64,000 nucleotides of DNA from Escherichia coli (lineage in GTDB: Bacteria; Pseudomonadota; Gammaproteobacteria; Enterobacterales; Enterobacteriaceae): NCBI RefSeq assembly GCF_030013595.1, contig NZ_CP122768.1; one strand, given 5' to 3'. The position numbers and the translations under genes were made by a program. Below, one piece after another: positions 1,821 through 46,363 of the stretch (position 1 is its first letter; every line of letters starts with the position of its first letter). The notes beneath the pieces are model-generated. The model was not told where the DNA came from. It did not search any database and worked only from the letters and a program-made list of their open reading frames with translations.

Positions 1821-1848
1821 AGGCCTGGCGCAATGTCAGGCCTTTTTT
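1821..1848 (+). terminator. Rho-independent terminator of aqpZ (AGGCCTG stem, CAGGCCT partner, T-run)
   Basis: Inverted repeat aggcctg/caggcct followed by TTTTTT immediately after the aqpZ stop. Confidence 0.6.
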
Positions 1849-2293: not shown

Positions 2294-3193
2294 ATGTTTT
2301 CTGGGCTGTTAATCATTCTGGTTCCCCTGATTGTGGGTTACCTCATTCCTCTTCGCCAAAAAGCTGCATTAAGAGTTATTAATCAGCTATTAAGCTGGAT
2401 GGTTTACCTCATTCTCTTTTTTATGGGTATCAGTCTGGCGTTTCTCGATAACCTCGCCAGTAACCTGTTGGCGATTCTGCATTATTCCGCCGTCAGCATT
2501 ACCATTATTTTACTCTGCAATATTATTGCGTTGTTGTGGCTGGAGCGCGGTCTGCCGTGGCGCAACCACCACCAGCAAGAAAAACTCCCGTCGCGTATTG
2601 CGATGGCGCTGGAGTCGCTAAAACTGTGCGGCGTAGTAGTGATTGGTTTTGCCATTGGTCTGAGTGGACTGGCTTTCTTACAACACGCGACCGAAGCCAG
2701 TGAATACACCTTAATTCTGCTACTTTTCCTCGTCGGTATTCAGTTGCGCAATAATGGCATGACCTTAAAGCAGATTGTCCTTAATCGCCGAGGAATGATT
2801 GTCGCCGTGGTGGTGGTTGCCAGTTCATTAATTGGTGGTTTAATTAACGCCTTTATTCTTGATCTACCCATCAATACCGCGCTGGCAATGGCCTCCGGTT
2901 TCGGCTGGTATTCTCTTTCCGGTATTTTATTGACCGAATCTTTTGGTCCGGTAATCGGGAGCGCAGCGTTTTTTAATGATCTGGCCCGTGAGCTGATTGC
3001 TATTATGTTGATTCCTGGGCTGATTCGCCGCAGCCGCTCTACCGCACTGGGCTTATGCGGTGCGACGTCGATGGATTTCACCCTGCCCGTTCTTCAACGT
3101 ACTGGCGGGCTGGATATGGTCCCGGCGGCAATTGTTCACGGTTTTATTCTTAGCCTGTTAGTGCCGATCCTCATCGCCTTTTTCTCTGCATAA
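2294..3193 (+). CDS. lysO: Lysine exporter LysO (YbjE)
   Basis: ORF 2246..3193; internal Met at +48 gives MFSGLLIILVPLIVGYLIPLRQ..., 299 aa, matching YbjE. Confidence 0.95.
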   Translation: MFSGLLIILVPLIVGYLIPLRQKAALRVINQLLSWMVYLILFFMGISLAFLDNLASNLLAILHYSAVSITIILLCNIIALLWLERGLPWRNHHQQEKLPSRIAMALESLKLCGVVVIGFAIGLSGLAFLQHATEASEYTLILLLFLVGIQLRNNGMTLKQIVLNRRGMIVAVVVVASSLIGGLINAFILDLPINTALAMASGFGWYSLSGILLTESFGPVIGSAAFFNDLARELIAIMLIPGLIRRSRSTALGLCGATSMDFTLPVLQRTGGLDMVPAAIVHGFILSLLVPILIAFFSA

Positions 3194-3226
3194 TACCTCT
3201 CTGGCGGTAGATCCCTGCCGCCAAAA

Positions 3227-3240
3227 TTGCGCTAAATCAA
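3227..3240 (+). promoter_or_regulatory. Candidate FNR box (TTGCGctaaATCAA) upstream of hcp
   Basis: Matches FNR consensus TTGAT-N4-ATCAA in 8 of 10 positions, about 100 nt upstream of the hcp ATG; hcp-hcr is an FNR-activated operon (established knowledge). Confidence 0.45.
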
Positions 3241-3298
3241 TCTCCCTTAAAGTTGCATGAAAAATCCCTTTTATCCCCGCGTTAAGCGTCTTAACCTT

Positions 3299-3320
3299 AA
3301 ACATGTATATTAAATATAAC
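3299..3320 (+). promoter_or_regulatory. Candidate NsrR-type AT-rich inverted repeat (AACATGTATATTAAATATAAC) in the hcp promoter
   Basis: Imperfect AT-rich dyad between the FNR box and the hcp start; hcp is NsrR-repressed (established knowledge); match to the motif judged by eye only. Confidence 0.35.
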
Positions 3321-3336
3321 TTTAAAAGGTGTGATC

Positions 3337-4989
3337 ATGTTTTGTGTGCAATGTGAACAAACTATCCGTACTCCGGCAGGAAACGGCTGCTCATACGCGC
3401 AGGGGATGTGTGGTAAAACGGCGGAAACCTCTGACCTTCAGGATTTACTCATCGCGGCGCTGCAAGGGCTTTCGGCCTGGGCGGTAAAAGCGCGTGAATA
3501 CGGCATCATCAACCACGATGTAGACAGCTTTGCGCCACGCGCATTTTTCTCAACCCTGACCAACGTTAACTTCGATTCTCCGCGTATAGTCGGCTACGCT
3601 CGTGAAGCGATTGCCCTGCGCGAGGTGCTGAAAGCACAATGCTTGGCTGTAGATGCCAACGCGCGCGTCGATAACCCGATGGCTGACCTGCAACTGGTGA
3701 GCGATGATCTCGGCGAGCTGCAACGTCAGGCAGCAGAATTTACCCCTAACAAAGATAAAGCGGCGATTGGCGAAAACATTCTCGGCCTGCGTCTGCTGTG
3801 CCTGTATGGCCTGAAAGGTGCGGCGGCCTATATGGAACACGCGCATGTTCTCGGTCAATACGACAACGATATTTATGCCCAGTACCATAAAATCATGGCG
3901 TGGCTGGGGACCTGGCCTGCCGATATGAACGCGCTTCTTGAGTGTTCAATGGAAATCGGCCAGATGAACTTCAAAGTGATGAGCATTCTGGATGCAGGCG
4001 AAACCGGTAAATACGGTCACCCGACGCCAACCCAGGTCAACGTCAAAGCGACGGCGGGTAAATGCATTCTGATTTCCGGTCACGATCTCAAAGATCTCTA
4101 CAACCTGCTGGAACAGACCGAAGGCACGGGCGTTAATGTCTACACCCACGGCGAAATGCTGCCTGCGCATGGCTACCCGGAGCTGCGTAAATTCAAGCAT
4201 CTGGTCGGTAACTACGGCAGCGGCTGGCAGAATCAGCAAGTGGAGTTCGCTCGTTTCCCTGGCCCCATCGTGATGACCTCGAACTGCATCATCGACCCAA
4301 CCGTAGGCGCTTATGACGATCGTATCTGGACCCGCAGCATCGTTGGCTGGCCGGGTGTGCGTCATCTGGATGGCGAAGATTTCTCTGCGGTCATCGCCCA
4401 GGCGCAACAAATGGCGGGCTTCCCGTACAGCGAAATTCCGCACCTGATCACCGTGGGCTTTGGTCGTCAAACGCTGCTTGGCGCAGCGGATACGCTGATT
4501 GACCTGGTAAGCCGTGAAAAACTGCGTCATATCTTCCTGCTTGGCGGCTGTGACGGCGCACGCGGCGAGCGTCACTATTTCACCGATTTCGCCACCAGCG
4601 TGCCGGATGACTGTCTGATCCTGACTCTCGCCTGTGGTAAATATCGCTTTAACAAACTCGAGTTTGGCGATATCGAAGGTCTGCCGCGTCTGGTAGATGC
4701 TGGTCAGTGTAACGATGCTTACTCAGCGATTATTCTGGCGGTAACGCTGGCAGAAAAACTGGGCTGCGGTGTCAACGATCTGCCGCTGTCGCTGGTGCTC
4801 TCGTGGTTTGAACAGAAAGCGATTGTCATTCTGCTGACACTGCTTTCTCTGGGTGTGAAAAATATCGTCACCGGCCCGACTGCACCAGGTTTCCTGACAC
4901 CAGATCTGCTGGCGGTGCTGAACGAGAAATTCGGCCTGCGTTCTATCACCACTGTTGAAGAAGACATGAAGCAACTGTTGAGCGCGTAA
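3337..4989 (+). CDS. hcp: Hybrid-cluster protein (hydroxylamine/NO reductase)
   Basis: ORF 3331..4989; [29 protein letters not shown]-terminal Cys cluster; 550 aa from ATG 3337. Confidence 0.97.
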
Positions 4990-5000
4990 GGAGTTTGTCG

Positions 5001-5969
5001 ATGACGATGCCAATGAATCAATGCCCGTGGCGGATGCAGGTTCATCACATTACGCAAGAAACGCCAGATGTGTGGACGATTTCCCTGATTTGCCACGATT
5101 ACTACCCATATCGCGCCGGGCAATATGCACTGGTCAGCGTGCGAAACTCAGCGGAAACGCTGCGTGCTTACACCATTTCCTCCACGCCAGGCGTGAGTGA
5201 ATACATCACCCTGACTGTGCGGCGGATTGATGACGGTGTCGGCTCCCAGTGGCTGACGCGCGATGTAAAACGCGGTGATTATCTCTGGCTTTCGGACGCG
5301 ATGGGGGAATTTACCTGCGACGATAAAGCAGAAGATAAATTCCTGTTGCTGGCGGCAGGCTGCGGCGTCACGCCGATTATGTCGATGCGTCGCTGGCTGG
5401 CGAAGAACCGTCCGCAGGCCGATGTGCAGGTGATCTACAACGTGCGTTCGCCGCAGGATGTTATTTTCGCCGATGAGTGGCGCAACTATCCGGTGACGCT
5501 GGTGGCAGAAAATAACGTTACCGAAGGCTTTATCGCTGGTCGTCTCACTCGCGAACTGCTGGCAGGTGTCCCTGACTTAGCTTCACGTACCGTGATGACC
5601 TGCGGCCCGGCTCCGTATATGGATTGGGTAGAGCAGGAAGTGAAAGCGCTCGGCGTGACGCGTTTCTTTAAAGAGAAATTCTTCACCCCAGTAGCGGAAG
5701 CGGCGACCAGCGGTCTGAAATTCACCAAACTGCAACCGGCACGAGAATTTTACGCCCCGGTTGGCACCACGCTACTGGAGGCGCTGGAAAGCAATAACGT
5801 TCCGGTTGTCGCTGCCTGCCGTGCAGGTGTTTGCGGCTGCTGTAAGACGAAAGTGGTTTCCGGTGAATATACGGTGAGCAGCACAATGACGCTGACCGAC
5901 GCCGAAATCGCTGAAGGTTACGTACTGGCCTGCTCCTGCCATCCGCAGGGGGATTTGGTTCTCGCATAA
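5001..5969 (+). CDS. hcr: NADH oxidoreductase for Hcp (FAD/2Fe-2S)
   Basis: MTMPMNQCPWRMQVHHITQETPDVW...; C-terminal CRAGVCGCCK ferredoxin motif; AAGGAG SD 7 nt upstream of ATG 5001; 322 aa. Confidence 0.96.
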   Translation: MTMPMNQCPWRMQVHHITQETPDVWTISLICHDYYPYRAGQYALVSVRNSAETLRAYTISSTPGVSEYITLTVRRIDDGVGSQWLTRDVKRGDYLWLSDAMGEFTCDDKAEDKFLLLAAGCGVTPIMSMRRWLAKNRPQADVQVIYNVRSPQDVIFADEWRNYPVTLVAENNVTEGFIAGRLTRELLAGVPDLASRTVMTCGPAPYMDWVEQEVKALGVTRFFKEKFFTPVAEAATSGLKFTKLQPAREFYAPVGTTLLEALESNNVPVVAACRAGVCGCCKTKVVSGEYTVSSTMTLTDAEIAEGYVLACSCHPQGDLVLA

Positions 5970-5978
5970 TCGCCTTAT

Positions 5979-6004
5979 GCCCGATGATATTCCTTTCATC
6001 GGGC
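5979..6004 (+). terminator. Stem-loop after hcr (GCCCGATGA / TCATCGGGC), weak U-tract
   Basis: 9-bp inverted repeat directly after the hcr stop, followed by tattta. Confidence 0.45.
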
Positions 6005-6101
6005 TATTTAACCGTTAGTGCCTCCTTTTTCCCCCATCCCTTCCCCCTCCGTCAGATGAACTAAACTTGTTACCGTTATCACATTCAGGAGATGGAGAAC
6101 C

Positions 6102-7820
6102 ATGAAACAAACGGTTGCAGCTTATATCGCCAAAACACTCGAATCGGCAGGCGTGAAACGCATCTGGGGAGTCACGGGCGACTCTCTGAACGGTCTTAGT
6201 GACAGTCTTAATCGCATGGGCACCATCGAGTGGATGTCCACCCGCCATGAAGAAGTGGCGGCCTTTGCCGCTGGCGCTGAAGCACAACTTTCAGGAGAAC
6301 TGGCGGTCTGTGCCGGATCGTGCGGCCCCGGAAACCTGCACTTAATCAACGGCCTGTTTGATTGCCACCGCAATCACGTTCCGGTACTGGCGATTGCCGC
6401 TCATATTCCCTCCAGCGAAATTGGCAGCGGCTATTTCCAGGAAACCCACCCACAAGAGCTATTCCGCGAATGTAGTCACTATTGCGAGCTGGTTTCCAGC
6501 CCGGAGCAGATCCCACAAGTGCTGGCGATTGCCATGCGCAAAGCGGTGCTTAACCGTGGCGTTTCCGTTGTCGTGTTACCGGGCGACGTGGCGTTAAAAC
6601 CTGCGCCAGAAGGGGCAACCTCGCACTGGTATCATGCGCCACAGCCAGTCGTGACGCCGGAAGAAGAAGAGTTACGCAAACTGGCGCAACTGCTGCGTTA
6701 TTCCAGCAATATCGCCCTGATGTGTGGCAGCGGCTGCGCGGGGGCGCATAAAGAGTTAGTTGAGTTTGCCGGGAAAATTAAAGCGCCTATTGTTCATGCC
6801 CTGCGCGGTAAAGAACATGTCGAATACGATAATCCGTATGATGTCGGAATGACGGGATTAATTGGCTTCTCGTCAGGTTTCCATACCATGATGAACGCCG
6901 ACACGTTAGTGCTACTCGGCACGCAATTTCCCTACCGCGCCTTCTACCCGACCGATGCCAAAATCATTCAGATTGATATCAACCCAGCCAGCATCGGCGC
7001 TCACAGCAAGGTGGATATGGCACTGGTCGGCGATATCAAGTCGACTCTGCGTGCATTGCTTCCACTGGTGGAAGAAAAAGCCGATCGCAAGTTTCTGGAT
7101 AAAGCGCTGGAAGATTACCGCGACGCCCGCAAAGGGCTGGACGATTTAGCTAAACCGAGCGAGAAAGCCATTCACCCGCAATATCTGGCGCAGCAAATTA
7201 GTCATTTTGCCGCCGATGACGCCATCTTTACCTGTGACGTTGGTACGCCAACGGTGTGGGCGGCACGTTATCTGAAAATGAACGGCAAGCGTCGTCTGTT
7301 AGGTTCGTTTAACCACGGTTCGATGGCTAACGCCATGCCGCAGGCGCTGGGTGCTCAGGCAACCGAGCCGGAACGTCAGGTGGTCGCCATGTGCGGCGAT
7401 GGCGGTTTTAGCATGTTGATGGGCGATTTCCTCTCAGTAGTGCAGATGAAACTGCCGGTGAAAATTATCGTCTTTAATAACAGCGTGCTGGGCTTTGTGG
7501 CGATGGAGATGAAAGCTGGTGGCTATTTGACTGACGGCACCGAACTACATGACACCAACTTTGCCCGCATTGCCGAAGCGTGCGGAATTACGGGTATTCG
7601 CGTGGAAAAAGCCTCTGAAGTCGATGAAGCCCTGCAACGCGCCTTCTCCATCGACGGTCCGGTGCTGGTGGATGTGGTGGTCGCCAAAGAAGAGTTAGCC
7701 ATTCCACCGCAGATCAAACTCGAACAGGCCAAAGGTTTCAGCCTGTATATGTTGCGCGCAATCATCAGCGGACGCGGTGATGAAGTGATCGAACTGGCGA
7801 AAACAAACTGGCTAAGGTAA
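6102..7820 (+). CDS. poxB: Pyruvate oxidase (ubiquinone-dependent), TPP/FAD enzyme
   Basis: 572-aa [37 protein letters not shown]..., full-length match to PoxB. Confidence 0.97.
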
Positions 7821-7856
7821 AAAGGGTGGCATTTCCCGTCATAATAAGGACATGCC

Positions 7857-8858
7857 ATGATTGATTTACGCAGTGATACCGTTACCCGACCGAGCCGCGC
7901 CATGCTCGAAGCGATGATGGCCGCCCCGGTTGGGGACGACGTTTACGGAGACGACCCTACCGTTAATGCTTTGCAGGACTATGCGGCAGAGCTTTCCGGT
8001 AAAGAAGCCGCCATTTTTCTGCCTACCGGCACTCAGGCCAACCTGGTCGCTCTGCTCAGTCACTGCGAACGCGGCGAAGAGTATATTGTCGGTCAGGCCG
8101 CGCATAACTATCTGTTTGAAGCCGGTGGCGCAGCGGTGCTGGGCAGTATTCAGCCGCAACCCATCGACGCGGCTGCCGACGGCACGCTACCGCTGGATAA
8201 AGTGGCGATGAAAATCAAACCCGACGATATCCATTTCGCCCGCACCAAATTACTCAGTCTGGAAAACACCCACAACGGCAAAGTGCTGCCGCGGGAATAC
8301 CTGAAAGAAGCATGGGAATTTACTCGCGAGCGCAATCTGGCGCTGCATGTTGACGGTGCACGCATCTTTAATGCCGTGGTGGCTTACGGCTGCGAACTGA
8401 AAGAGATCACGCAATATTGTGATTCGTTCACCATTTGCCTGTCGAAAGGTCTTGGGACGCCAGTCGGTTCATTACTCCTCGGTAATCGTGATTACATTAA
8501 ACGCGCCATCCGCTGGCGGAAAATGACCGGCGGCGGGATGCGCCAGTCCGGCATTCTGGCTGCCGCCGGGATGTATGCCCTGAAAAATAACGTCGCGCGC
8601 TTACAGGAAGACCACGACAACGCCGACTGGATGGCGGAGCAGTTGCGTGAAGCAGGCGCGGATGTGATGCGTCAGGACACCAATATGCTGTTTGTTCGCG
8701 TCGGGGAAGAAAATGCTGCCGCGTTAGGCGAATACATGAAAGCGAGAAACGTGCTGATTAACGCCTCGCCGATTGTCCGCCTGGTGACCCATCTTGACGT
8801 CTCGCGTGCACAACTGGCGGAAGTCGCCGCCCACTGGCGCGCATTCCTGGCGCGTTAA
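7857..8858 (+). CDS. ltaE: Low-specificity L-threonine aldolase
   Basis: 333-aa [43 protein letters not shown]... Confidence 0.97.
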
Positions 8859-8868
8859 GGAGGGAGAC

Positions 8869-10299
8869 GTGCCGCAACGCATTTTAGTTCTCGGTGCCAG
8901 TGGCTACATTGGTCAGCATCTGGTGCGCACACTCAGCCAGCAGGGGCATCAGATCCTGGCGGCGGCACGTCATGTCGACAGGCTTGCAAAGCTGCAACTG
9001 GCAAACGTCAGTTGCCATAAAGTCGATCTCAGCTGGCCGGATAACCTTCCGGCCCTGTTACAGGATATCGATACCGTCTATTTTCTGGTGCACAGCATGG
9101 GCGAAAGCGGCGATTTTATCGCTCAGGAGCGCCAGGTGGCTCTCAACGTCCGCGATGCGCTACGTAAAGTCCCAGTTAAGCAATTAATCTTTCTCAGTTC
9201 GTTACAGGCCCCGCCACATGAGCAGTCGGACCATCTGCGTGCTCGTCAGGCTACGGCGGACATTCTTCGTGAAGCGGGTGTCCCGGTGACCGAATTGCGT
9301 GCCGGAATAATCGTTGGTGCAGGTTCAGCGGCGTTCGAGGTCATGCGCGATATGGTCTACAACCTGCCAGTGTTAACGCCGCCGCGCTGGGTCCGTTCAC
9401 GCACCACGCCCATCGCGCTGGAAAACTTGCTGCACTATCTGGTGGCGCTGTTAGATCATCCGGCCTGCGAACATCGCATCTTCGAAGCCGCCGGACCAGA
9501 AGTGCTCAGTTATCAGCAACAGTTTGAACATTTTATGGCGGTGAGCGGTAAGCGCCGCTGGTTGATCCCCATCCCCTTTCCGACCCGCTGGATTTCGGTG
9601 TGGTTTCTCAATGTGATTACTTCCGTACCGCCCACCACCGCCAAAGCGTTGATTCAGGGGCTGAAACACGATCTGCTGGCAGATGACACCGCGTTACGTG
9701 CACTCATCCCACAACGGCTGATTGCTTTCGATGACGCGGTACGTCGCACCCTGAAAGAGGAAGAAAAGCTGGTCAACTCCAGCGACTGGGGATACGACGC
9801 TCAGGCATTTGCCCGCTGGCGACCGGAGTACGGTTATTTCGCCAAACAGGCGGGGTTTACCGTTAAAACGTCCGCCAGCCTTGCGGCTTTATGGCAGGTG
9901 GTGAATCAAATCGGCGGTAAAGAGCGTTATTTCTTTGGCAATATTTTGTGGCAAACCCGGGCGTTGATGGACCGCGCGATCGGTCATAAGCTGGCGAAAG
10001 GCCGCCCGGAGCGTGAATATTTGCAGACCGGCGATGCGGTGGATAGCTGGAAAGTGATTGTCGTTGAACCGGAAAAACAACTTACGCTGTTATTTGGCAT
10101 GAAAGCGCCGGGGCTGGGACGACTGTGTTTTACCCTGGAAGATAAAGGCGACTATCATACTATCGATGTTCGCGCATTCTGGCATCCGCACGGTATGCCG
10201 GGGCTGTTTTACTGGTTATTGATGATCCCCGCGCATCTGTTTATTTTTCGCGGAATGGCAAAACAAATCGCCAGACTGGCAGAACAAAGCACAGATTAA
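8869..10299 (+). CDS. ybjT: YbjT, NAD(P)-binding epimerase/dehydratase-family protein with C-terminal DUF2867
   Basis: ORF track 8794..10299; the likely start is GTG 8869 (gives [17 protein letters not shown], 476 aa) with AAGGAGGG SD at 8858-8865; the longer track ORF would overlap ltaE. Confidence 0.9.
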
Positions 10300-10397
10300 T
10301 CGACAAAACCTGCGTTATTCTTTCATGTTTCCCATTGCATCATGGGGGAAATCACGGAAGAATGCGCACGTCATTTTCTCAACAACAGTGGATTGAT

Positions 10398-11411
10398 ATG
10401 AAGGTACTGGTTACCGGCGCCACCAGCGGCTTAGGTCGAAACGCGGTAGAGTTTTTATGCCAGAAAGGCATCAGCGTGCGAGCGACCGGTCGCAACGAGG
10501 CAATGGGTAAATTGCTGGAAAAAATGGGCGCAGAGTTTGTTCCGGCGGATCTGACCGAGCTGGTCTCATCACAAGCTAAAGTGATGCTCGCGGGCATTGA
10601 TACGCTGTGGCACTGCTCCAGCTTTACCTCGCCCTGGGGGACACAACAGGCTTTCGATCTGGCTAACGTTCGCGCCACTCGCCGCCTGGGTGAATGGGCT
10701 GTCGCCTGGGGTGTGCGTAACTTTATTCATATCTCTTCCCCCTCCCTGTACTTCGATTATCACCACCATCGCGATATTAAAGAAGATTTTCGCCCTCACC
10801 GCTTCGCTAACGAGTTTGCCCGTAGCAAAGCAGCCAGCGAAGAAGTGATCAATATGCTTTCGCAGGCGAATCCACAAACGCGCTTTACTATTCTGCGCCC
10901 ACAAAGTCTGTTCGGACCGCACGATAAAGTCTTTATCCCCCGTCTGGCGCATATGATGCACCACTACGGCAGCATTCTGTTACCGCACGGCGGCAGTGCG
11001 CTGGTCGATATGACCTACTATGAAAATGCCGTGCACGCCATGTGGCTGGCAAGCCAGGAAGCCTGCGATAAGCTACCTTCCGGGCGTGTGTACAACATCA
11101 CCAACGGCGAACATCGCACACTGCGCAGCATCGTGCAGAAGCTAATCGACGAGTTGAATATTGACTGTCGTATTCGTTCCGTCCCCTACCCGATGCTGGA
11201 TATGATCGCCCGCAGCATGGAGCGTTTAGGCCGCAAGTCAGCAAAAGAGCCGCCGCTGACCCACTACGGCGTCTCCAAGTTGAATTTTGACTTTACGCTG
11301 GATATTACGCGTGCGCAGGAAGAGTTAGGTTATCAACCAGTCCTCACCCTGGATGAAGGTATCGAGAAAACTGCCGCCTGGCTACGCGACCACGGAAAAC
11401 TGCCGCGCTAA
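10398..11411 (+). CDS. ybjS: YbjS, NAD(P)-dependent epimerase/dehydratase-family protein
   Basis: ORF 10335..11411; internal ATG 10398 gives [20 protein letters not shown] (Rossmann GxxGxxG), 337 aa. Confidence 0.92.
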
Positions 11412-12238
11412 TCCTGCCCGTATTTCTCCAGCAACGCTTCGGCAATCGCCTGAGTTTCTGCATCCGCTTCGCCGTTGTATAACGTCGGGCGGAAATGCAT
11501 CTGGAACGCCATAATCACGCGCCGCTGCTCGCGCGGTGTCATATCAGGTTTAACGTCATAACCGTAGCGCGCCAAAAGCTCCAGCAATGACGCGGTATCT
11601 ACCGGTGTGTGCGGCGCGCGCCCGGCAAGGTAAAAGTTCACCCGCTGCGCATCCGGCCAGGCACCAATCCCCTGCTGCGCCAGTTGTTGCCAGGGGAATA
11701 ACGGCCCCGGATCGTCTTTGCGCTGCGGCGCAATATCCGCATGTGCCACTACGTTTTCCGGCTTGATGTGATAACGGGCAATAATATCTTTCGCCAGCGG
11801 AATAAGCGCCTGAATCTGTGCCTGTTCAAACGGGGCAAAATATTTCACTCCGGCTGATTTCTGCCAGCCACGGTTTTCCAGCTCAATGCCAATAGAGGTG
11901 TCGTTAAGGCGCGTTGCCCCGCGCCAGGCGCTAATCCCCGCATGCCAGGCCAGTTCTTCTTCCGGCACCAGTTGCCAGATGCGCGGTTTACCGTTGTATC
12001 GCGGTGGTACCGCAGGGACCAGATAATGCGAGCTGACCTGCTTATCGGTCAGTGTCGCCAGCGAGCTATCAAAATCATCTGCGGTGTAGTGGATCACCAG
12101 CACTTTAATGCGAGGATACGCCGCCTGCGCCTGGCGTCGGGTATCAAGCTGATATCCCTCTTTCTCGACAATGCCTTTTTCGCCTGCACACCCTGCCAGT
12201 AACAGAGCGGCGGCGACCAGCCAGAAGACTCTTCTCAT
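11408..12238 (-). CDS. amiD: N-acetylmuramoyl-L-alanine amidase AmiD (lipoprotein)
   Basis: 276-aa [22 protein letters not shown] (lipobox); 4-bp overlap with the ybjQ stop. Confidence 0.95.
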
Positions 12239-25972: not shown

Positions 25973-26449
25973 TCAGTGGAGGAAATAGTTTTCGGTAACG
26001 TTGTTTTGCCCTTCATCGTCAGTCGGTAACAGCAGTTGATGGGCATTAGCTTCAAGAATGACCATCGAAATCTGCTCTTCGCTCTGACGCACGAACCATG
26101 CAAACTGCTCATAGGTTACGCCCTGCATAACGGATAAAGACTGGCAAACCACCAGCTTTGGCAGATTATCATCCTGCATATCAAGAAATGCTTTCACGGT
26201 CAGCGAACTGGCATTGATGGCTGATAAATCCGCCGCCAGCGGCAATACGGCTGAAGGTCGGACTTCCGCCATGGCAGAAAACAGGATCGTGTTATCGATC
26301 AGATCGATTTTGGCATCAAAGACACCGTCGAAATTCTGCATATGGGGCAGATGCAGAGCCTGACAGTTATCACATTCAAAAAAACTCATCCCCAGGTCAT
26401 CGAGCCATTGACGCAACGTATCCAGACCAGGAACGACCAGCGATGTCAT
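25973..26449 (-). CDS. ybjN: YbjN, putative sensory transduction regulator
   Basis: ORF 25973..26497; ATG 26449 gives MTSLVVPGLDTLRQWLDDLGMSFFECDNC, 158 aa. Confidence 0.93.
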   Translation of the reverse strand: MTSLVVPGLDTLRQWLDDLGMSFFECDNCQALHLPHMQNFDGVFDAKIDLIDNTILFSAMAEVRPSAVLPLAADLSAINASSLTVKAFLDMQDDNLPKLVVCQSLSVMQGVTYEQFAWFVRQSEEQISMVILEANAHQLLLPTDDEGQNNVTENYFLH

Positions 26450-26536
26450 AATTTTGTACAACCTCTTTCGATAAAAAGACCGGCACAGCTTACGCAAAAA
26501 GCGCAGGCAAAACCATGATCAGTAATGTGATTGCGA

Positions 26537-27439
26537 CTAACCACCCGTTTTCAGGCAATATTCTGTCGTAGCGTGGCGTTCGATCCAGCGGATCATTTTA
26601 CCCGCGATGTCGATACCGGTGGTTTTTTCTATTCCTTCCAGCCCCGGCGACGCATTCACTTCCATCACCAACGGCCCGCGATTAGCACGCAAAATATCTA
26701 CACCAGCAACGTCCAGCGCCATCGTTCGCGCGGCTTTTATCGCGATTTCACGCTCCTGTGGTGTGATACTGGCGACGCTTGCCGCGCCGCCACGATGCAA
26801 ATTGGAACGAAAATCGCCCTCTTTCGCCCGCCGTTCAATCGCCGCGACCACTTCATCGCCAACAACCAGACAGCGGATATCGCACCCTTGCGCCTCTTTG
26901 ATATATTCCTGCACCAGAATATGCGCGTTCAGACCGCGGAAAGCGTCAATCACGCTTTCGGCCGCCTGACGCGTCTCCGCCAGCACGACGCCAATTCCCT
27001 GCGTGCCTTCAACCAGCTTGACCACCAGCGGCGCACCACCGACCATGTCGATTAAATCGCTGGTATCATCCGGCGAATGCGCAATGCCCGTGACAGGCAG
27101 GTCGATGCCCTGACGCGCCAGCAGTTGCATGGAACGCAATTTGTCACGCGCCCGGGCAATGGCGACCGACTCATTGAGCGGATAGCTCCCCAGCATCTCG
27201 AACTGGCGCAGTGCCGCCGTCCCATAAAAGGTAATGGCGGTGCCAATACGCGGGATCACTGCGTCAAAATGGGGTAACTTGCGGCCTTTGTAGTGAATAG
27301 AAGACGCCGCAGGATTTATGTTCATGTAGCAAGAAAGCGGATCAAGAATTTCAACCAGGTGACCGCGCTGTATAGCGGCTTCACGCAGCCGCTTACACGA
27401 ATAGAGCGTTCCATCCCGGGACAATATGGCAATTTTCAC
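26537..27439 (-). CDS. rimK: Ribosomal protein S6 glutamate ligase RimK (ATP-grasp)
   Basis: 300-aa [37 protein letters not shown]... Confidence 0.96.
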
Positions 27440-27909
27440 CCTGCACCTCTCTGTCAGACCTGGTCAAAAGCCCGCGTATCATACATCGGCGTGGCGGTTT
27501 TAGCGCGTTGCCCAACCCTGTTTGTGCAAATAATCCAGAATAAATGGGCGGCTTTCTTTAATGATTGTTCGGCGGATATGATCGCTCCAGGTATCCCGGC
27601 GATTATTGCTGCCACGGGTGAGGTAATATTCCGCCAGTTGCTCGTCATACTGCGCCAGTTCGTCTTTATCCAGCGGTTGATAGCTGTTTTCATGCACCAA
27701 AATGGAGGCCGGTAAACGCGGCTTAAGATCTGGATTATCCGCAGGCCAGCCAAGGCACAGCCCAAACAGCGGCAGAACATGCTGCGGTAATTTCAGCAGC
27801 TCCGTCACCGCTTCAATATTATTGCGCAGGCCGCCGATATATACCCCGCCCAATCCCAGCGATTCCGCTGAGGTTAACGCATTCTGCGCCATCATTGCCG
27901 TATCAACGA

Positions 27910-27918
27910 CACCGAGCA
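27910..27918. repeat. IS10 target-site duplication, left copy (CACCGAGCA)
   Basis: Identical 9-mer directly flanks both IS10 termini; IS10/Tn10 makes 9-bp duplications. Confidence 0.85.
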
Positions 27919-27931
27919 CTGAGAGATCCCC

Positions 27932-29140
27932 TCATAATTTCCCCAAAACGTAACCATGTGTGAATAGATTTTGAGTAAGCAGGGTTGCAGCCACGAGTGA
28001 GTCTTCCCTTGTTATTGTGTAGCCAGAATGCCGCAAAACTTCCATGCCTAAGCGAACTGTTGAGAGTACGTTTCGATTTCTGACTGTGTTAGCCTGGAAG
28101 TGCTTGTCCCAACCTTGTTTCTGAGCATGAACGCCCGCAAGCCAACATGTTAGTTGAAGCATCAGGGCGATTAGCAGCATGATATCAAAACGCTCTGAGC
28201 TGCTCGTTCGGCTATGGCGTAGGCCTAGTCCGTAGGCAGGACTTTTCAAGTCTCGGAAGGTTTCTTCAATCTGCATTCGCTTCGAATAGATATTAACAAG
28301 TTGTTTGGGTGTTCGAATTTCAACAGGTAAGTTAGTTGCTAGAATCCATGGCTCCTTTGCCGACGCTGAGTAGATTTTAGGTGACGGGTGGTGACAATGA
28401 GTCCGTGTCGAGCGCTGATTTTTTCGGCCTTTAGAGCGAGATTTATACAATAGAATTTGGCATGAGATTGGATTGCTTTTAGTCAGCCTCTTATAGCCTA
28501 AAGTCTTTGAGTGACTAGATGACATATCATGTAAGTTGCTGATAGGTTTCCAGTTTTCCGCTCCTAGGTCTGCATATTGTACTTTTCCTCTTACTCGACT
28601 TAACCAGTACCAACCCAGCTTCTCAACGGATTTATACCATGGCACTTTAAAGCCAGCATCACTGACAATGAGCGGTGTGGTGTTACTCGGTAGAATGCTC
28701 GCAAGGTCGGCTAGAAATTGGTCATGAGCTTTCTTTGAACATTGCTCTGAAAGCGGGAACGCTTTCTCATAAAGAGTAACAGAACGACCGTGTAGTGCGA
28801 CTGAAGCTCGCAATACCATAAGCCGTTTTTGCTCACGGATATCAGACCAGTCAACAAGTACAATGGGCATCGTATTGCCCGAACAGATAAAGCTAGCATG
28901 CCAACGGTATACAGCGAGTCGCTCTTTGTGGAGGTGACGATTACCTAACAATCGGTCGATTCGTTTGATGTTATGTTTTGTTCTCGCTTTGGTTGGCAGG
29001 TTACGGCCAAGTTCGGTAAGAGTGAGAGTTTTACAGTCAAGTAAGGCGTGGCAAGCCAACGTTAAGCTGTTGAGTCGTTTTAAGTGTAATTCGGGGCAGA
29101 ATTGGTAAAGAGAGTCGTGTAAAATATCGAGTTCGCACAT
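27932..29140 (-). CDS. IS10 transposase
   Basis: 402-aa ORF MCELDILHDSLYQFCPELHLKRLNSLTLACHALLDCKTLTLTELGRNLPTKARTKHNIKRIDRLLGNRHLHKERLAVYRWH..., matches the remembered Tn10/IS10 transposase across its length. Confidence 0.97.
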   Translation of the reverse strand: MCELDILHDSLYQFCPELHLKRLNSLTLACHALLDCKTLTLTELGRNLPTKARTKHNIKRIDRLLGNRHLHKERLAVYRWHASFICSGNTMPIVLVDWSDIREQKRLMVLRASVALHGRSVTLYEKAFPLSEQCSKKAHDQFLADLASILPSNTTPLIVSDAGFKVPWYKSVEKLGWYWLSRVRGKVQYADLGAENWKPISNLHDMSSSHSKTLGYKRLTKSNPISCQILLYKSRSKGRKNQRSTRTHCHHPSPKIYSASAKEPWILATNLPVEIRTPKQLVNIYSKRMQIEETFRDLKSPAYGLGLRHSRTSSSERFDIMLLIALMLQLTCWLAGVHAQKQGWDKHFQANTVRNRNVLSTVRLGMEVLRHSGYTITREDSLVAATLLTQNLFTHGYVLGKL

Positions 29141-29201
29141 TTTGTTGTCTGATTATTGATTTTTGGCGAAACCATTTGATCATATGACAAGATGTGTATC
29201 T
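29133..29201 (+). ncRNA. IS10 RNA-OUT antisense RNA (pOUT transcript), position inferred from the IS10 map
   Basis: Established IS10 biology places pOUT about 115 bp inside the outside end, reading outward across the transposase start at 29138-29140; coordinates come from the known map, not from a motif search. Confidence 0.5.
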
Positions 29202-29247
29202 ACCTTAACTTAATGATTTTGATAAAAATCATTAGGGGATTCATCAG

Positions 29248-29256
29248 CACCGAGCA
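29248..29256. repeat. IS10 target-site duplication, right copy (CACCGAGCA)
   Basis: Identical to 27910..27918. Confidence 0.85.
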
Positions 29257-29543
29257 ACAGTTGTTCCGCCAGGCCAAGTTGTGCATCCGGACAGATCTGT
29301 AAATGGCGGTTAAAGTCGGCACAGAACACCCAGAACTCCGCCGCTTGCGCTACGTGTTTTTGCCCGCCGGTCAGCGTCACCAGTTCATCACGTAACGCTT
29401 TGTCGGTAATGCGAATAATGCTACTGCACTGCAAAAAACTGGAACTGGACGTCGCACGGGCGCTGTTAATAATCGCCTCACGCTGCGCTTCGGAAATGGG
29501 TTCATCAGTGAAATGGCGAATGGAGCGATGGCCACAAATAAGT

Positions 29544-29831
29544 TCAATGGTTGGCGTCATTATCTTTTTCTCTTTCTGAACGTGAATATTGCGGTGGACG
29601 GTTCATCAGCTGTGGGGCAAGACGTTTTGCCACCTGAAGAATAACCACCACCGCAGCGGGAAGCATGAGCAAAACACCGAGAAAAATCATCAGAATCTGC
29701 ACTTCTGGCCGAGAAAATGGCTCAGGCAGCGACAGGGAGCCGCTTACCGACAGCAGCGCCACCGCCAGCAACATCATTCCGATAAATTCCAGTATCAACA
29801 CGCTTTTAGGCAATTTACCGATCGCGCGCAT
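29544..29831 (-). CDS. ybjC: YbjC inner-membrane protein (DUF1418)
   Basis: 95-aa ORF MRAIGKLPKSVLILEFIGMMLLAVALLSVSG... Confidence 0.93.
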   Translation of the reverse strand: MRAIGKLPKSVLILEFIGMMLLAVALLSVSGSLSLPEPFSRPEVQILMIFLGVLLMLPAAVVVILQVAKRLAPQLMNRPPQYSRSEREKDNDANH

Positions 29832-29990
29832 ACGCTTCCCTCTGCAAAGTGAGCCTTCAGTCTAAAACTTTTCACTGTATTGTGTTTAACAGTTATAGCT
29901 TTTAGCAATTAATGCAACAGGTTAAACCTACTTTCAGCGAATAAATTTTAGCGTGATCATTACAGGCATAAATCTATGAGGAGAGAAATA

Positions 29991-30248
29991 ATGCAAACCG
30001 TTATTTTTGGTCGTCCGGGTTGCCCTTACTGTGTGCGTGCAAAAGATCTGGCTGAGAAATTGAGCAATGAACGCGATGATTTTCAGTATCAGTATGTTGA
30101 TATTCGTGCGGAAGGGATCACTAAAGAAGATCTACAACAAAAGGCAGGTAAACCCGTAGAAACCGTGCCGCAGATTTTTGTCGATCAGCAACATATCGGC
30201 GGCTATACCGATTTTGCTGCATGGGTGAAAGAGAATCTGGACGCCTGA
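29991..30248 (+). CDS. grxA: Glutaredoxin 1
   Basis: ORF 29976..30248; ATG 29991 gives MQTVIFGRPGCPYCVRAKDLAEKL with the CPYC active site, 85 aa. Confidence 0.96.
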   Translation: MQTVIFGRPGCPYCVRAKDLAEKLSNERDDFQYQYVDIRAEGITKEDLQQKAGKPVETVPQIFVDQQHIGGYTDFAAWVKENLDA

Positions 30249-30277
30249 TCGTCTGACAAGCCCTCGCGTTGAGGGCT

Positions 30278-30655
30278 TTATTGATTTTTTCTGTGCTGTG
30301 GTTTAAACAAACTACTGATAAATAAGAAACACAGTGCCCCCAGCGCACACCAGAACACCGCACTCAATAACCATGCCAGCTCTTGCCAGAATGAGCGCGT
30401 CGGTGAAAAAAACAGCCGCATAATAAGCATTGAACAGGGTGCCGCCAGCATTGCGCCAAACAGAGGTTTCAGGACTTCTCTACGCTGTGAAAAGAAGCTG
30501 GCAACTGCTCCAGGAAGAATGAAAAACAGCAAGCCGATTTCAGGATGCCCGGCAGCCCGAAAAGCGCCTTTCATGTGCGTCGCCAGAAAAAGGCACACCA
30601 CAATGAAGAGGACAAAACAGCAGATTGCCCCCGCCCAACGTTGTTTATGTTTCAC
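30278..30655 (-). CDS. ybjM: YbjM inner-membrane protein
   Basis: 125-aa ORF MKHKQRWAGAICCFVLFIVVCLFLATHMKG... Confidence 0.92.
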   Translation of the reverse strand: MKHKQRWAGAICCFVLFIVVCLFLATHMKGAFRAAGHPEIGLLFFILPGAVASFFSQRREVLKPLFGAMLAAPCSMLIMRLFFSPTRSFWQELAWLLSAVFWCALGALCFLFISSLFKPQHRKNQ

Positions 30656-44034: not shown

Positions 44035-44218
44035 TTAATCTTAAGGCAGATCTAACAAGGATATTGTTCTTCGATCTGCCTCTGCTACCCTTCCCGATGT
44101 CCTACCCTTACGCACAAAATCCCCTGACGCATAAATCGAGAAAAATGAATCGTACTCGAGGCAACTCTCACTTTTTCACACCAAATTAAAGTTTTGATCG
44201 CAATTACTTGAAATAAGC

Positions 44219-44244
44219 GTAATGGTTACTATAGTAAACATTAC
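44219..44244 (+). promoter_or_regulatory. 26-bp near-perfect palindrome (GTAATGGTTACTATAGTAAACATTAC) just upstream of the toxin gene; candidate autoregulatory operator
   Basis: Dyad-symmetric with 2 symmetric mismatches, core TACTATAGTA, ending about 15 nt before ATG 44260 and overlapping the likely -10 and SD region. Confidence 0.5.
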
Positions 44245-44259
44245 CACAAGGATGGATGT

Positions 44260-44646
44260 ATGGGTGTGTATAAGGCAAGACGATTCAGCCAAAGCACGAA
44301 AAAACTTGGTATTCACGATAAAGTTCTCATGGCTGCCGCTGAAGAAGTGATGCAGGGCATATGGGAGGCTGATTTAGGTAGCGGTGTCATCAAAAAACGT
44401 TTACCCCTCCAACAAGGAAAGAGTGGTGGAGCCAGAACAATTATCTTTTTTAAATCAGCAAATCATGTGTTTTTTTATGATGGTTGGTCCAAGAGTGGTC
44501 TAAGCAGTAAAGGAACCAAAGAAATCGAAGATGATGAACTGGCGGCCTACAAAAAAATGGCAAATGCATTTCTGGCCTTTAGCAATAAGCAAATAGAGGA
44601 TTTGATCGAAACTGGCTTTTTGATTGAGGTGAAAAATGAGCGATAA
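44260..44646 (+). CDS. Putative type II toxin, RelE/ParE-superfamily-like (motif LIKKR...GKSGGxRTIIFF...DDEL...LIEV); not present at this locus in K-12
   Basis: 128-aa ORF MGVYKARRFSQSTKKLGIHDKVLMAAAEEVMQGIWEADLGSGVIKKRLPLQQGKSGGARTIIFFKSANHVFFYDGWSKSG...; AAGGATGG SD; overlaps the downstream HTH gene by 11 nt; looks about 40% GC. Confidence 0.75.
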   Translation: MGVYKARRFSQSTKKLGIHDKVLMAAAEEVMQGIWEADLGSGVIKKRLPLQQGKSGGARTIIFFKSANHVFFYDGWSKSGLSSKGTKEIEDDELAAYKKMANAFLAFSNKQIEDLIETGFLIEVKNER

Positions 44647-44965
44647 ATTACAAATGATGCTGGAAGATGCAAAGGAACTGAATGCACTGGGCCTGATGTC
44701 TGATAGTGAAGTTGATGCCATTGCCGTCATGGTCAAAGCTCGTGAAGTCAGCGCCCGTATAGCCAAAGTCAAATCAATGACGGGTGAAGAGATCAAAGCC
44801 ATCCGCACCCGATACGGCATGTCACAATCCGTGCTGGCACATACAATGGGAATGTCAAAAGAAAGTGTCTCGAAATGGGAACGTAATGAAATAAAACCGA
44901 GCGGCCCGGCATTACGTATTTTGAATACATTGGCAATAAAAGGGCCGGAAGTTTTTGCAAAGTAA
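44636..44965 (+). CDS. Putative antitoxin or transcriptional regulator with C-terminal XRE-type HTH (NadS-like architecture)
   Basis: 109-aa ORF MSDKLQMMLEDAKELNALGLMSDSEVDAIAVMVKAREVSARIAKVKSMTGEEIKAIRTRYGMSQSVLAHTMGMSKESVSKWERNEIKPSGPALRILNTLAIKGPEV; GAGGTG SD; translationally coupled to the upstream gene. Confidence 0.75.
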   Translation: MSDKLQMMLEDAKELNALGLMSDSEVDAIAVMVKAREVSARIAKVKSMTGEEIKAIRTRYGMSQSVLAHTMGMSKESVSKWERNEIKPSGPALRILNTLAIKGPEVFAK

Positions 44966-44995
44966 AATGTTTGCAAATGATTTACCACATTCATT

Positions 44996-45019
44996 AGTAC
45001 CCCTTGATTAAGGGGTACT
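44996..45019. terminator. Hairpin (AGTACCCCTT gatt AAGGGGTACT) between the HTH gene and convergent dgcI
   Basis: 10-bp perfect inverted repeat with a 4-nt loop between two convergent stops. Confidence 0.5.
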
Positions 45020-45034
45020 AACACTATTCTAATT

Positions 45035-46363
45035 CTACTGCCAGCTAATCTGCGCCCTGCCGTTTTTCTTACTTTTATACAGTCGCTCATCCGCCAGCAT
45101 TTTCAAGCGTTCGACGGTAGTACATTCATTTGAATGCGCTACACCGATACTGGTGCTTAAATTAATGCTTCCCACCTGGAAATGAACAATTTCTTTTAGA
45201 ATCGATAGCAACTCTTCCAGCGTTCCACCCGTATAAATCACCGCAAATTCGTCACCGCCGAAGCGGTAGACTTTACCTTTATCTACCGGGATCTGTGATT
45301 TAAGGATTTTCACCACTTTCATCAACACTTCATCGCCCAGCAAATGACCGAAGGTGTCGTTAATGTTTTTGAATTTATCGACGTCAAACAGGCACAAATA
45401 TCCGCCTTTTTCCGGCAGGGCTTTTAAATCTTCGTCAAAGGATTTTCTGCCCATCGCTTTGGTCAGGTCATCCAGGAACGCCGAGTTATACAGACTGTAG
45501 AGTTTTTTGACATCGGCAGCTGAAAAGAAAAGCCCGCCATCCAGTACGCGTTCAAAATGGTTATTAATGATGGCTTCTTTCTCCACAATACCACGATTAA
45601 TCACTCTGCGTACCAGATAGAGGCAACTGACACCCGATATCACTGCCACCAATGCGGCAAAGAAAATAATCAATGTACAGACCCGCAAATAAACATCTTT
45701 TTTATACGCAAATACGTACAATCCGGTCGGCAAATAGGCGAAGTGCTCCATCGCTTCCGAAACGGTGAAGATGGCGTTTTTAGCATTAAATTCATCACCG
45801 GTCACCGGTTTACCGTTCTTAAACAGAGAGAACATCAGGTTCTCGCTATCCATCGCCAGCGATTTTGACAGTAAAGAAAAACGCTCCAGACCAAGCAAAA
45901 ATATCAGACTGCGATTGTGAGTTACCGGATAGAGGTAATAGACGAAGGTTTTACCGTCAAAAGAGATAAACCCTGTATTTTTGACATGTCGATACTTCAC
46001 AATCTGCATAATATCTGCACAATAATTTTTCTCGAACTCCTTTACCTGAATACATTCGTCACTGGAAATCAGATAAGGACCGACATCGTGCAAATAAGAG
46101 GGTGAAACCGAGTCGGCGTAAGCTGTGCGTAAGCCAACCAACAGCTGTTCCTCCGTGGGATTTAGCGTGTTGATAAGATCAATTGCCACGCTACGCCGAT
46201 ATTCAGCAATATTTGCCACCGCAAAAGCAGTATCAATAACGGACTGTTTCAGGTCATACACCCGTTCCTTTACCATTTGAGTGTAGTTCCCGCAGGCAAC
46301 TGCTGAAATCATGATAAAAATCAGCAGACTGACTGTAAGTACGAACTTATTGATTCTGGACAT
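45035..46363 (-). CDS. dgcI: Diguanylate cyclase DgcI (YliF), GGDEF domain
   Basis: 442-aa [30 protein letters not shown]...; C-terminal GGDEF region (RFGGDEF). Confidence 0.95.

What the first reader, a model, noticed from the sequence alone, without database searches (positions are those of the whole stretch)
27910..29256. IS10 insertion inactivating the nitroreductase gene nfsA (nitrofuran-resistance genotype)
A complete 1329-bp IS10 (27919..29247) with intact terminal sequences and a 402-aa transposase interrupts nfsA after about codon 104. It is flanked by a perfect 9-bp direct repeat CACCGAGCA, the hallmark of a bona fide IS10 transposition event rather than an assembly artefact. The two nfsA fragments join seamlessly across the duplication. 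Loss of NfsA is the established first step to nitrofurantoin and nitrofurazone resistance in E. coli, and insertion sequences are a known way to achieve it. The insertion sits within the ybjC-nfsA-rimK-ybjN transcription unit, so polar effects on rimK and ybjN are possible.
Basis: partly seen in the sequence, partly recalled or inferred. Interest (0 to 1): 0.72.

Follow-up and report, generated by a model that had tools for sequence, protein, structure and literature searches.

The report
IS10 insertion knocking out nfsA
A real copy of the well-known mobile element IS10 has inserted into and broken the E. coli nitroreductase gene nfsA, a textbook first step towards nitrofuran resistance, so the finding is correct but ordinary.

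Summary
A 1329-bp IS10 (27919..29247) lies between two identical 9-bp repeats (CACCGAGCA) and splits nfsA inside codon 105. Removing it restores a 240-aa NfsA. The element looks functional: 402-aa transposase with its DDE triad, both dam sites, and RNA-OUT.

Two refinements:
- **It is IS10-Left, not IS10-Right.** It is 100% identical to the jemA/gltS-side arm of Tn10 on plasmid R100, the arm usually called transposition-defective.
- **The site is a recurrent target.** Among 5,426 complete E. coli genomes, 14 carry IS10-type insertions in nfsA. They represent at least 11 independent events at only four positions, in both orientations. The window's position (nt 313) was hit at least four separate times.

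The equal split of orientations argues that gene loss is the common consequence, not a regulatory effect on rimK/ybjN or grxA.

IS-mediated nfsA loss is long established, as are Tn10 in nfsA and an IS10R-like element in nfsB. The phenotype is inferred only, and nfsB and ribE lie outside the window. Verdict: real, interpretation supported, already known, low interest.

The parts
27910..27918 (.). Left copy of the 9-bp target-site duplication, CACCGAGCA (gene strand TGCTCGGTG, nfsA nt 305-313)
   Evidence: Identical to 29248-29256. It matches 4 of the 6 specified positions of the IS10 target consensus NGCTNAGCN.
27919..29247 (-). Complete IS10, IS10-Left sequence type, 1329 bp. The inside end is at 27919 and the outside end at 29247. 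The transposase is co-oriented with nfsA.
   Evidence: 100% identical over 1329 bp to the gltS/jemA-side arm of Tn10 on R100. It carries all 15 L-specific bases. It differs by 1 nt from the NEB5alpha copy labelled IS10L and by 16 nt from the XL1-Blue copy labelled IS10R.
27932..29140 (-). IS10 transposase gene, 402 aa
   Evidence: ORF. IS4-family transposase NF033591, 402 bits. D97, D161, E292 and Y285/R288/K299 are present. The exact protein is seen on at least 1000 contigs.
29133..29202 (+). RNA-OUT antisense RNA gene of IS10
   Evidence: Rfam RF00240, 97.3 bits (gathering score 41), full length 1-70.
29136..29196 (-). Hairpin predicted in read-through transcripts that pairs the transposase AUG (29140-29138) with upstream IS sequence (fold-back)
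   Evidence: The MFE and centroid folds of 29300..29101 pair IS nt 52-112. This is the sense-strand mirror of the RNA-OUT stem. The whole-fragment z-score is not significant.
28018..28248 (-). IS nt 1000-1230, the segment reported to hold the outward promoters PIII and OUTIIp. Here they would read toward the nfsA 3' fragment, rimK and ybjN.
   Evidence: Location and direction are taken from PMC11481808. The segment is identical between L and R types here, with no differences between nt 903 and 1249. A simple consensus scan found no site there.
29248..29256 (.). Right copy of the 9-bp target-site duplication, CACCGAGCA
29210..29560 (-). nfsA 5' fragment (29248..29560, codons 1-104 plus 1 nt), read on into the IS to a stop at IS nt 36-38. 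The truncated product is 116 aa.
   Evidence: ORF. The exact 116-aa product is also called on about 4-5 public draft contigs.
27500..27918 (-). nfsA 3' fragment (codons 105-240 plus stop), now without promoter or start
29544..29831 (-). ybjC, first gene of the ybjC-nfsA-rimK-ybjN unit, intact
   Evidence: Synteny with K-12. Transcription unit from PMC4207228.
26537..27439 (-). rimK, intact, 60 bp downstream of the nfsA stop. Possibly subject to polarity.
25973..26449 (-). ybjN, intact, last gene of the unit
29991..30248 (+). grxA, divergent from ybjC. It lies in the direction in which IS10 pOUT transcription leaves the outside end.
   Evidence: The direction of pOUT comes from established knowledge of IS10 and was not tested here.

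Best explanation
A single IS10 of the IS10-Left sequence type transposed into nfsA of a natural E. coli lineage by the usual IS4-family cut-and-paste route. The transposase made cuts staggered by 9 bp at TGCTCGGTG (nfsA nt 305-313), and repair duplicated those 9 bp.

Shown here:
- The gene is split. The only translatable product is 104 NfsA residues plus 12 IS-encoded residues, lacking residues 105-240.

Inferred:
- This is a null allele of the major oxygen-insensitive NADPH nitroreductase, so the cell activates nitrofurans less and is less susceptible at the first-step level.
- Transcripts from the SoxS-activated ybjC promoter run into the IS outside end. There the transposase start is predicted to be buried in a hairpin and opposed by RNA-OUT.
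- rimK and ybjN lose their operon promoter. They may still be fed by read-through and by the reported inside-end outward promoters.

The site is a preferred IS10 target and has been hit repeatedly in unrelated lineages.
For: - Structure: exact 9-bp duplication, 1329-bp element and seamless restoration of a 240-aa ORF.
- Identity of the IS: 100% identical to a Tn10 arm on R100. The L-type assignment rests on two independently labelled references (with PMC11481808; with PMC11148124).
- Identity of the gene: restored protein matches NfsA 1F5V (E 8e-159) and NF008033 (436 bits). The window is collinear with K-12 ybjC-nfsA-rimK-ybjN.
- The element looks functional: DDE triad, dam sites at IS nt 67 and 1320, RNA-OUT at 97.3 bits.
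- Independent assembly with the same junction.
- Recurrence: the same site and duplication occur in O111:H11 (R-type, same orientation), SEV1/SEV4 (R-type, opposite) and Z1323CEC0002/4 (opposite). Three other sites are used by eight more genomes.
- Phenotype logic: nfsA-minus strains keep only 20-30% of type I nitroreductase activity, and stepwise resistance starts with nfsA (PMC11936445; PMC8767348).
Against: - No phenotype, expression or read-level data are available.
- nfsA loss alone gives only a modest MIC rise. nfsB and ribE are outside the window.
- The used target matches only 4 of 6 consensus positions, and 33 other 4/6 sites and four 5/6 sites exist in this allele. The consensus alone therefore does not explain why this site recurs.
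- IS10-Left is described as inactive or much weaker than IS10-Right (PMC11148124, PMC8767348), so how this copy moved is open.
- The fold-back hairpin is a prediction. The 200-nt fragment folds no better than shuffles (z = -0.2).
Confidence: 0.9

Rival explanations
1. Assembly artefact: a repeated IS10 copy was wrongly placed inside an nfsA that is intact in the real genome.
For: IS10 is multicopy in many E. coli: 1,902 of 5,426 genomes have matches, with a median of 2 places. The source appears to be a draft assembly, since the longest contig with the fusion ORF is 94 kb.
Against: An assembler does not create a perfect 9-bp target duplication at both junctions. An independent assembly (GCA_021649405.1) has the same outside-end junction at 99.97% identity. 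Closed genomes of three other lineages have IS10 at the identical position.
Confidence: 0.02
2. Neutral hot-spot hit: IS10 landed in nfsA because the gene contains preferred targets and is dispensable. It persisted by drift, with no nitrofuran selection and little practical effect on susceptibility.
For: All 11 or more events fall on four sites that resemble the IS10 target. Wan et al. report that nfsA is under the weakest purifying selection of the three genes. nfsA loss alone is only a first step.
Against: 14 genomes carry IS10 within about 460 bp of nfsA. About 0.4 would be expected if the 4,480 chromosomal IS10 places were spread uniformly over roughly 5 Mb. This estimate is crude: it ignores target preference and shared ancestry. 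Most hosts are livestock (chicken, pig, cattle), where nitrofurans have been used, but that is circumstantial.
Confidence: 0.25
3. The selected effect is regulatory, not loss of NfsA. IS10 promoters change expression of neighbours: PIII/OUTIIp would drive rimK-ybjN, and pOUT would drive antisense ybjC and sense grxA.
For: [quoted passage not shown] In this window the inside end faces rimK and the outside end faces grxA.
Against: An orientation-balanced search found both orientations equally often: 7 versus 7 genomes, about 6 versus 5 events. Gene disruption is the only consequence common to all. Simple promoter and terminator scans were uninformative.
Confidence: 0.05
4. The IS10-Left copy did not move by itself. 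It was mobilised by transposase from an IS10-Right or Tn10 elsewhere in the cell, or it is a relic of a Tn10-related event.
For: IS10-Left transposase is described as inactive or much weaker. Tn10 plasmids carrying both arms are very common: 2,312 plasmid records match.
Against: IS10L was seen inserting de novo into a plasmid in NEB5alpha (PMC11481808). Pure L-type copies sit at many different chromosomal loci, including three other nfsA insertions (APEC O2-211, MB53, 700462). The window's transposase has an intact DDE triad. No tet genes or second arm lie in the window.
Confidence: 0.3

Closest known systems
IS10-Left of Tn10 (plasmid R100/NR1, NC_002134.1, the arm next to gltS/jemA)
   Same: Identical at all 1329 positions. 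Same 402-aa transposase (WP_001352368.1), ends, dam sites and RNA-OUT.
   Different: Here it is a solitary chromosomal insertion, not an arm of the composite tetracycline-resistance transposon.
IS10-Right of Tn10 (the classical active arm, as in XL1-Blue tonB::IS10R and mini-Tn10 ends)
   Same: Same length, organisation, 9-bp duplication and target preference; 98.8-98.9% identical.
   Different: Differs from the R100 arm at 15 nt: IS nt 24, 25, 27, 47, 83, 107, 410, 425, 903, 1249, 1268, 1271, 1272, 1281 and 1300. It differs from the XL1-Blue copy at 16 nt. There are 4 residue differences (I266V, S381L, T389A, V398A).
Published IS-mediated nitroreductase knock-outs: nfsA::IS1, nfsA::IS186 and others (Whiteway 1998), nfsA::Tn10 (Sandegren 2008), nfsB::IS10R-like (Wan 2021), all as cited in PMC8767348
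   Same: Same mechanism and expected phenotype: an insertion sequence destroys a type I nitroreductase gene and leaves flanking direct repeats.
   Different: Here a solitary IS10-Left-type copy sits in nfsA at nt 313. I found no paper describing that particular allele in the searchable library. Wan et al. expected IS10L to be less likely than IS10R to do this.
nfsA::IS10 alleles in closed RefSeq genomes (O111:H11 88.0502 and 88-19539, SEV1/SEV4, Z1323CEC0002/4, APEC O2-211, TUM1880, 700462, EC1722-1, E92/E94, EC21Z-014, MB53)
   Same: Same gene and same element family. The first three lineages share the identical site and duplication, CACCGAGCA.
   Different: The same-site alleles carry R-type elements and/or the opposite orientation, on diverged flanks (17 of 1400 mismatches to O111:H11). 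They are therefore independent events, not the same allele.

Membership tests
IS10 (IS4 family insertion sequence) | Length of 1329 bp with imperfect terminal inverted repeats of about 23 bp (outside end CTGATGAATCCCC..., inside end CTGAGAGATCCCC...) | tested here: met
   1329 bp, both ends present, 17 of 23 positions match between the ends. 100% identical to a Tn10 arm on R100.
IS10 (IS4 family insertion sequence) | 9-bp target-site duplication at a site resembling NGCTNAGCN | tested here: met
   Perfect 9-bp repeat. The site matches 4 of 6 consensus positions, including one perfect half-site. The same site was reused independently in three other lineages.
IS10 (IS4 family insertion sequence) | Single 402-aa DDE transposase (D97, D161, E292) | tested here: met
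   Intact ORF, NF033591 at 402 bits, catalytic residues present.
IS10 (IS4 family insertion sequence) | Antisense regulator RNA-OUT and dam (GATC) sites at both ends | tested here: met
   RF00240 at 97.3 bits. GATC at IS nt 67 and 1320.
IS10 (IS4 family insertion sequence) | Transposition activity of this copy | not testable with these tools
   Only indirect evidence: the fresh-looking duplication, and L-type copies at many loci. A de novo IS10L insertion is reported in PMC11481808.
IS10-Left sequence type (as opposed to IS10-Right) | Carries the bases that distinguish the two arms of Tn10 | tested here: met
   15 of 15 diagnostic positions are of the gltS/jemA-side arm type. It is 1 nt from the NEB5alpha copy labelled IS10L and 16 nt from the XL1-Blue copy labelled IS10R. 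The primary papers (Halling 1982, Chalmers 2000) could not be read.
NfsA (oxygen-insensitive NADPH nitroreductase, E. coli b0851) | Sequence and length of the restored ORF | tested here: met
   240 aa. Matches 1F5V over residues 1-240 (E 8e-159) with 6 substitutions: E58D, I117T, A118S, K141E, G187D, A188E. NF008033 equivalog at 436 bits against a cut-off of 223.
NfsA (oxygen-insensitive NADPH nitroreductase, E. coli b0851) | Genomic position grxA / ybjC-nfsA-rimK-ybjN | tested here: met
   Collinear with K-12 890-893 kb.
Nitrofuran-resistance genotype (stepwise nfsA then nfsB loss) | Loss-of-function lesion in nfsA | tested here: met
   The ORF is truncated to 104 native residues.
Nitrofuran-resistance genotype (stepwise nfsA then nfsB loss) | State of nfsB, ribE and oqxAB | not testable with these tools
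   These loci lie outside the 64-kb window, which corresponds to K-12 857.8-917.2 kb.
Nitrofuran-resistance genotype (stepwise nfsA then nfsB loss) | Raised nitrofurantoin/nitrofurazone MIC | not testable with these tools
   Requires the isolate.

The most novel reading that the evidence does not exclude
nfsA nt 305-313 (with nt 276-284, 72-80 and 157-165) would be a convergent IS10 target under nitrofuran selection. The IS10-Left sequence type, the textbook 'defective' arm of Tn10, would be an autonomous and successful insertion sequence in natural E. coli that causes about half of IS10-type nfsA knock-outs. That runs contrary to the expectation stated in the nitrofurantoin-resistance literature.
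Probability: 0.45. Interest if true: 0.3.

Novelty: already known. Interest (0 to 1): 0.15.

Why it matters
- **Surveillance:** this allele marks an isolate one mutation (nfsB) away from clinical nitrofurantoin resistance. Short-read pipelines can miss it because assemblies break at the IS; the related draft contig ends 97 bp into the element.
- **Survey result:** IS10-type elements account for 14 of the 37 complete E. coli genomes in which nfsA is split or truncated by something large. They use only four sites, which could be added to genotype-to-phenotype rules.
- **IS10-Left:** it adds natural-population evidence that the 'inactive' label for IS10-Left should not be used to discount it as a mutagen.
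- None of this changes current understanding of either IS10 or nitrofuran resistance.

Tried and rejected
1. **Orientation bias.** The first junction search found only co-oriented insertions. That was an artefact of the query. A mirror-image junction query found equally many opposite-orientation insertions. I therefore dropped the idea that orientation is selected to keep rimK/ybjN expressed.
2. **Same allele by descent in O111:H11.** Rejected. The IS differs at 16 positions (R-type against L-type) and the flank at 17 of 1400.
3. **Source genome among complete E. coli genomes.** Not found. The best flank identity is 99.3% and the best nfsA allele identity is 99.7%. The closest relative is a draft assembly, GCA_021649405.1. 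I did not scan genome contigs or metagenome contigs, because a one-genome-per-species set is unlikely to hold this strain.
4. **Promoter and terminator consensus scans of 26400-30400.** Counts were at or below shuffle expectation, and even the known IS10 promoters were not picked up, so the scans were uninformative.
5. **Whole-fragment RNA fold significance for fold-back inhibition.** z = -0.2. Only the specific hairpin is worth noting.
6. **Primary papers.** Halling 1982, Chalmers 2000, Martinez-Garcia 2003 and Whiteway 1998 are not held. The L/R assignment and promoter directions therefore rest on secondary papers plus sequence comparison.
7. **Literal-string search for L- and R-type leader sequences.** It found only the R-type mini-Tn10 end, in one paper.

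Full report
**Observation.**
- Window 27910-27918 and 29248-29256 are both CACCGAGCA.
- The 1329 bp between them begin with the IS10 inside end (CTGAGAGATCCCC, 27919) and finish with the outside end (reverse complement CTGATGAATCCCC, 29247).
- A 402-aa ORF runs 29140 to 27932 on the minus strand.
- Removing the element and one repeat copy restores a 723-nt, 240-aa ORF.
- That ORF aligns end to end with the NfsA crystal-structure sequence 1F5V (E 8e-159, six substitutions). It scores 436 bits on the NfsA equivalog model NF008033, whose cut-off is 223.
- The insertion follows nt 313 and splits codon 105. The only translatable product is 104 native residues plus 12 IS-encoded residues.
- The window is otherwise collinear with E. 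coli K-12 857.8-917.2 kb at 96.4-98.7% identity. The gene order is grxA / ybjC-nfsA-rimK-ybjN.

**Is it real?**
- A perfect 9-bp duplication at both junctions is the signature of transposition, not of assembly.
- An independent draft assembly (GCA_021649405.1, contig JAJARF010000045.1) is 99.97% identical to the window. It carries the same outside-end junction before the contig breaks 97 bp into the IS.
- The exact 116-aa fusion product is called on about 4-5 public contigs.
- No complete RefSeq E. coli genome is the source. The best flank identity is 99.3%.

**What the element is.**
- It is 100% identical over 1329 bp to one arm of Tn10 on plasmid R100, the arm next to gltS/jemA, with transposase WP_001352368.1.
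- The other R100 arm lies next to tetD/tetC and encodes WP_001339197.1. It differs at 15 nucleotides and four residues.
- Two independently labelled references fix which arm is which:
  - The NEB 5-alpha fhuA::IS10 is called IS10L in PMC11481808. It differs from the window copy by one synonymous base.
  - The XL1-Blue tonB::IS10 is called IS10R in PMC11148124. It is one base from the tetD-side arm and 16 bases from the window copy.
  - The 70-bp mini-Tn10 outside end printed in PMC12488917 is also of the tetD-side type. That it derives from IS10-Right is my recollection.
- So the window carries the IS10-Left sequence type.
- The copy looks functional: D97/D161/E292 and the YREK residues are present, GATC sites sit at IS nt 67 and 1320, and RNA-OUT scores 97.3 bits over its full length.
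- I could not read the primary papers.

**Population context.** I searched 5,426 complete E. coli genomes with the inside-end junction and with a constructed mirror-image junction. Each search found seven genomes. Extracting sites, duplications and diagnostic bases gives at least 11 independent events at four positions:

| nfsA site | Duplication | Genomes (IS type, orientation relative to nfsA) |
|---|---|---|
| nt 313 | CACCGAGCA | window (L, same); O111:H11 x2 (R, same); SEV1/SEV4 (R, opposite); Z1323CEC0002/4 (R-type end, opposite, itself hit by IS1) |
| nt 284 | AGCTGAGCA, a perfect NGCTNAGCN | APEC O2-211 (L, same); TUM1880 (hybrid, same); 700462 (L, opposite); EC1722-1 (hybrid, opposite) |
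| nt 80 | CGCTGCGCT | E92/E94 (R, same); EC21Z-014 (near-L, opposite) |
| nt 165 | CGCTTTGTC | MB53 (L, same) |

- The window's nfsA allele lacks the perfect nt 276-284 site that K-12 has (TGCACAACT against TGCTCAGCT). This fits the use of the next site.
- The used site matches 4 of 6 consensus positions. The allele has no 6/6 site, four 5/6 sites and 33 4/6 sites, so context beyond the consensus must contribute.
- nfsA is split or truncated in 37 of the 5,415 genomes that have it. IS10-type insertions account for 14 of these.
- If the 4,480 chromosomal IS10 places were spread uniformly, about 0.4 would fall in this 460-bp stretch. The excess suggests hot-spot preference, selection or both. 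The estimate is crude.

**How it most likely works.**
- Shown: the DNA structure and the truncated ORF.
- Inferred from established knowledge: NfsA is the major oxygen-insensitive NADPH nitroreductase that activates nitrofurans.
  - nfsA-minus strains keep 20-30% of type I activity.
  - Stepwise resistance normally begins with nfsA (PMC11936445; PMC8767348).
- This allele should therefore give first-step, low-level reduced susceptibility. Clinical resistance usually also needs nfsB loss, which cannot be assessed here.
- The transposase is co-oriented with the operon, so transcripts from the SoxS-activated ybjC promoter (PMC4207228) enter the outside end.
- In the predicted fold of such a transcript, the transposase AUG is paired within a hairpin spanning IS nt 52-112. 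This is consistent with the fold-back protection described for IS10 (my recollection of Davis et al. 1985). RNA-OUT adds antisense control.
- Downstream, rimK and ybjN lose the operon promoter. Secondary literature places outward promoters (PIII, OUTIIp) in IS nt 1000-1230, reading across the inside end (PMC11481808; PMC4574204). Here that is 28018-28248, facing rimK, and the segment is identical in L and R types. Polarity may therefore be partial. This is untested.

**Rivals.**
- Misassembly is very unlikely, for the reasons above.
- A purely regulatory explanation is disfavoured because both orientations occur equally often.
- A neutral hot-spot insertion without nitrofuran selection cannot be excluded. 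Livestock sources predominate among the carriers, but that is circumstantial.
- Whether the L-type copy moved on its own or was helped by an R-type transposase elsewhere is open. De novo IS10L insertion has been reported, and pure L-type copies occur at many loci.

**Comparison with what is known.** IS-mediated inactivation of nfsA/nfsB is long established:
- IS1 and IS186 in nfsA: Whiteway 1998.
- Tn10 in nfsA: Sandegren 2008.
- An IS10R-like element in nfsB: Wan 2021.

All three are as cited in PMC8767348. RefSeq already annotates the equivalent alleles as split nfsA pseudogenes flanking an 'ISVsa5 family' transposase. The only mildly new points are the L-type identity, where Wan et al. expected IS10L to be the less likely culprit, and the repeated use of the same few sites.

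**Verdict.** The mechanism is already known and interest is low.

Noticed in passing
window 12620-15164: A 2.5-kb segment absent from K-12 lies between ybjQ and ybjP. Its GC content is 29-37% against about 55% in the flanks. It holds one 600-aa ORF (12769..14571, minus strand) with a pentapeptide-repeat region (aa 366-469, PF13599, E 8e-6) and a sub-threshold 50-aa resemblance to the Hailong effector HalA. Its function is unknown.
   Followed up: partly
window 44040-45035: A 1-kb segment absent from K-12 lies between rimO and dgcI. It encodes a RelE-family toxin (44260..44646, PF06296, E 8e-33) that overlaps by 11 nt a 109-aa HTH protein (44636..44965, MqsA/NadS-like but below cut-offs). This is a probable type II toxin-antitoxin pair.
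   Followed up: partly
L012 (NZ_CP148483.1, E. coli Z1323CEC0004), locus 1951-3890: The IS10-type element inserted at the same nfsA site in this chicken isolate is itself interrupted by an IS1A, so it is a nested insertion.
   Followed up: no
L009 (TUM1880), L015 (EC1722-1), L014 (EC21Z-014): Some nfsA-borne IS10 copies are L/R mosaics, with 4L/11R, 9L/6R and 14L/1R at the 15 diagnostic positions. This implies recombination or gene conversion between IS10-Left and IS10-Right types in the wild.
   Followed up: partly
window 29276-29284 (nfsA nt 276-284): The window's nfsA allele reads TGCACAACT where K-12 and several other lineages have the perfect IS10 hot spot TGCTCAGCT. Natural synonymous variation therefore removes or creates the best IS10 target in this gene.
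   Followed up: partly
protein cluster of the 116-aa fusion product: The 90%-identity cluster holding the truncated NfsA product has 761 members. Many are differently truncated NfsA fragments of 71-146 aa from E. coli and Shigella assemblies, so broken nfsA genes or contig-end fragments are common in public data.
   Followed up: no
window 18794-19767: Small indel-rich stretches relative to K-12 occur in the artJ-rlmC intergenic region, where the alignment breaks at 18794 and 19750-19767.
   Followed up: no
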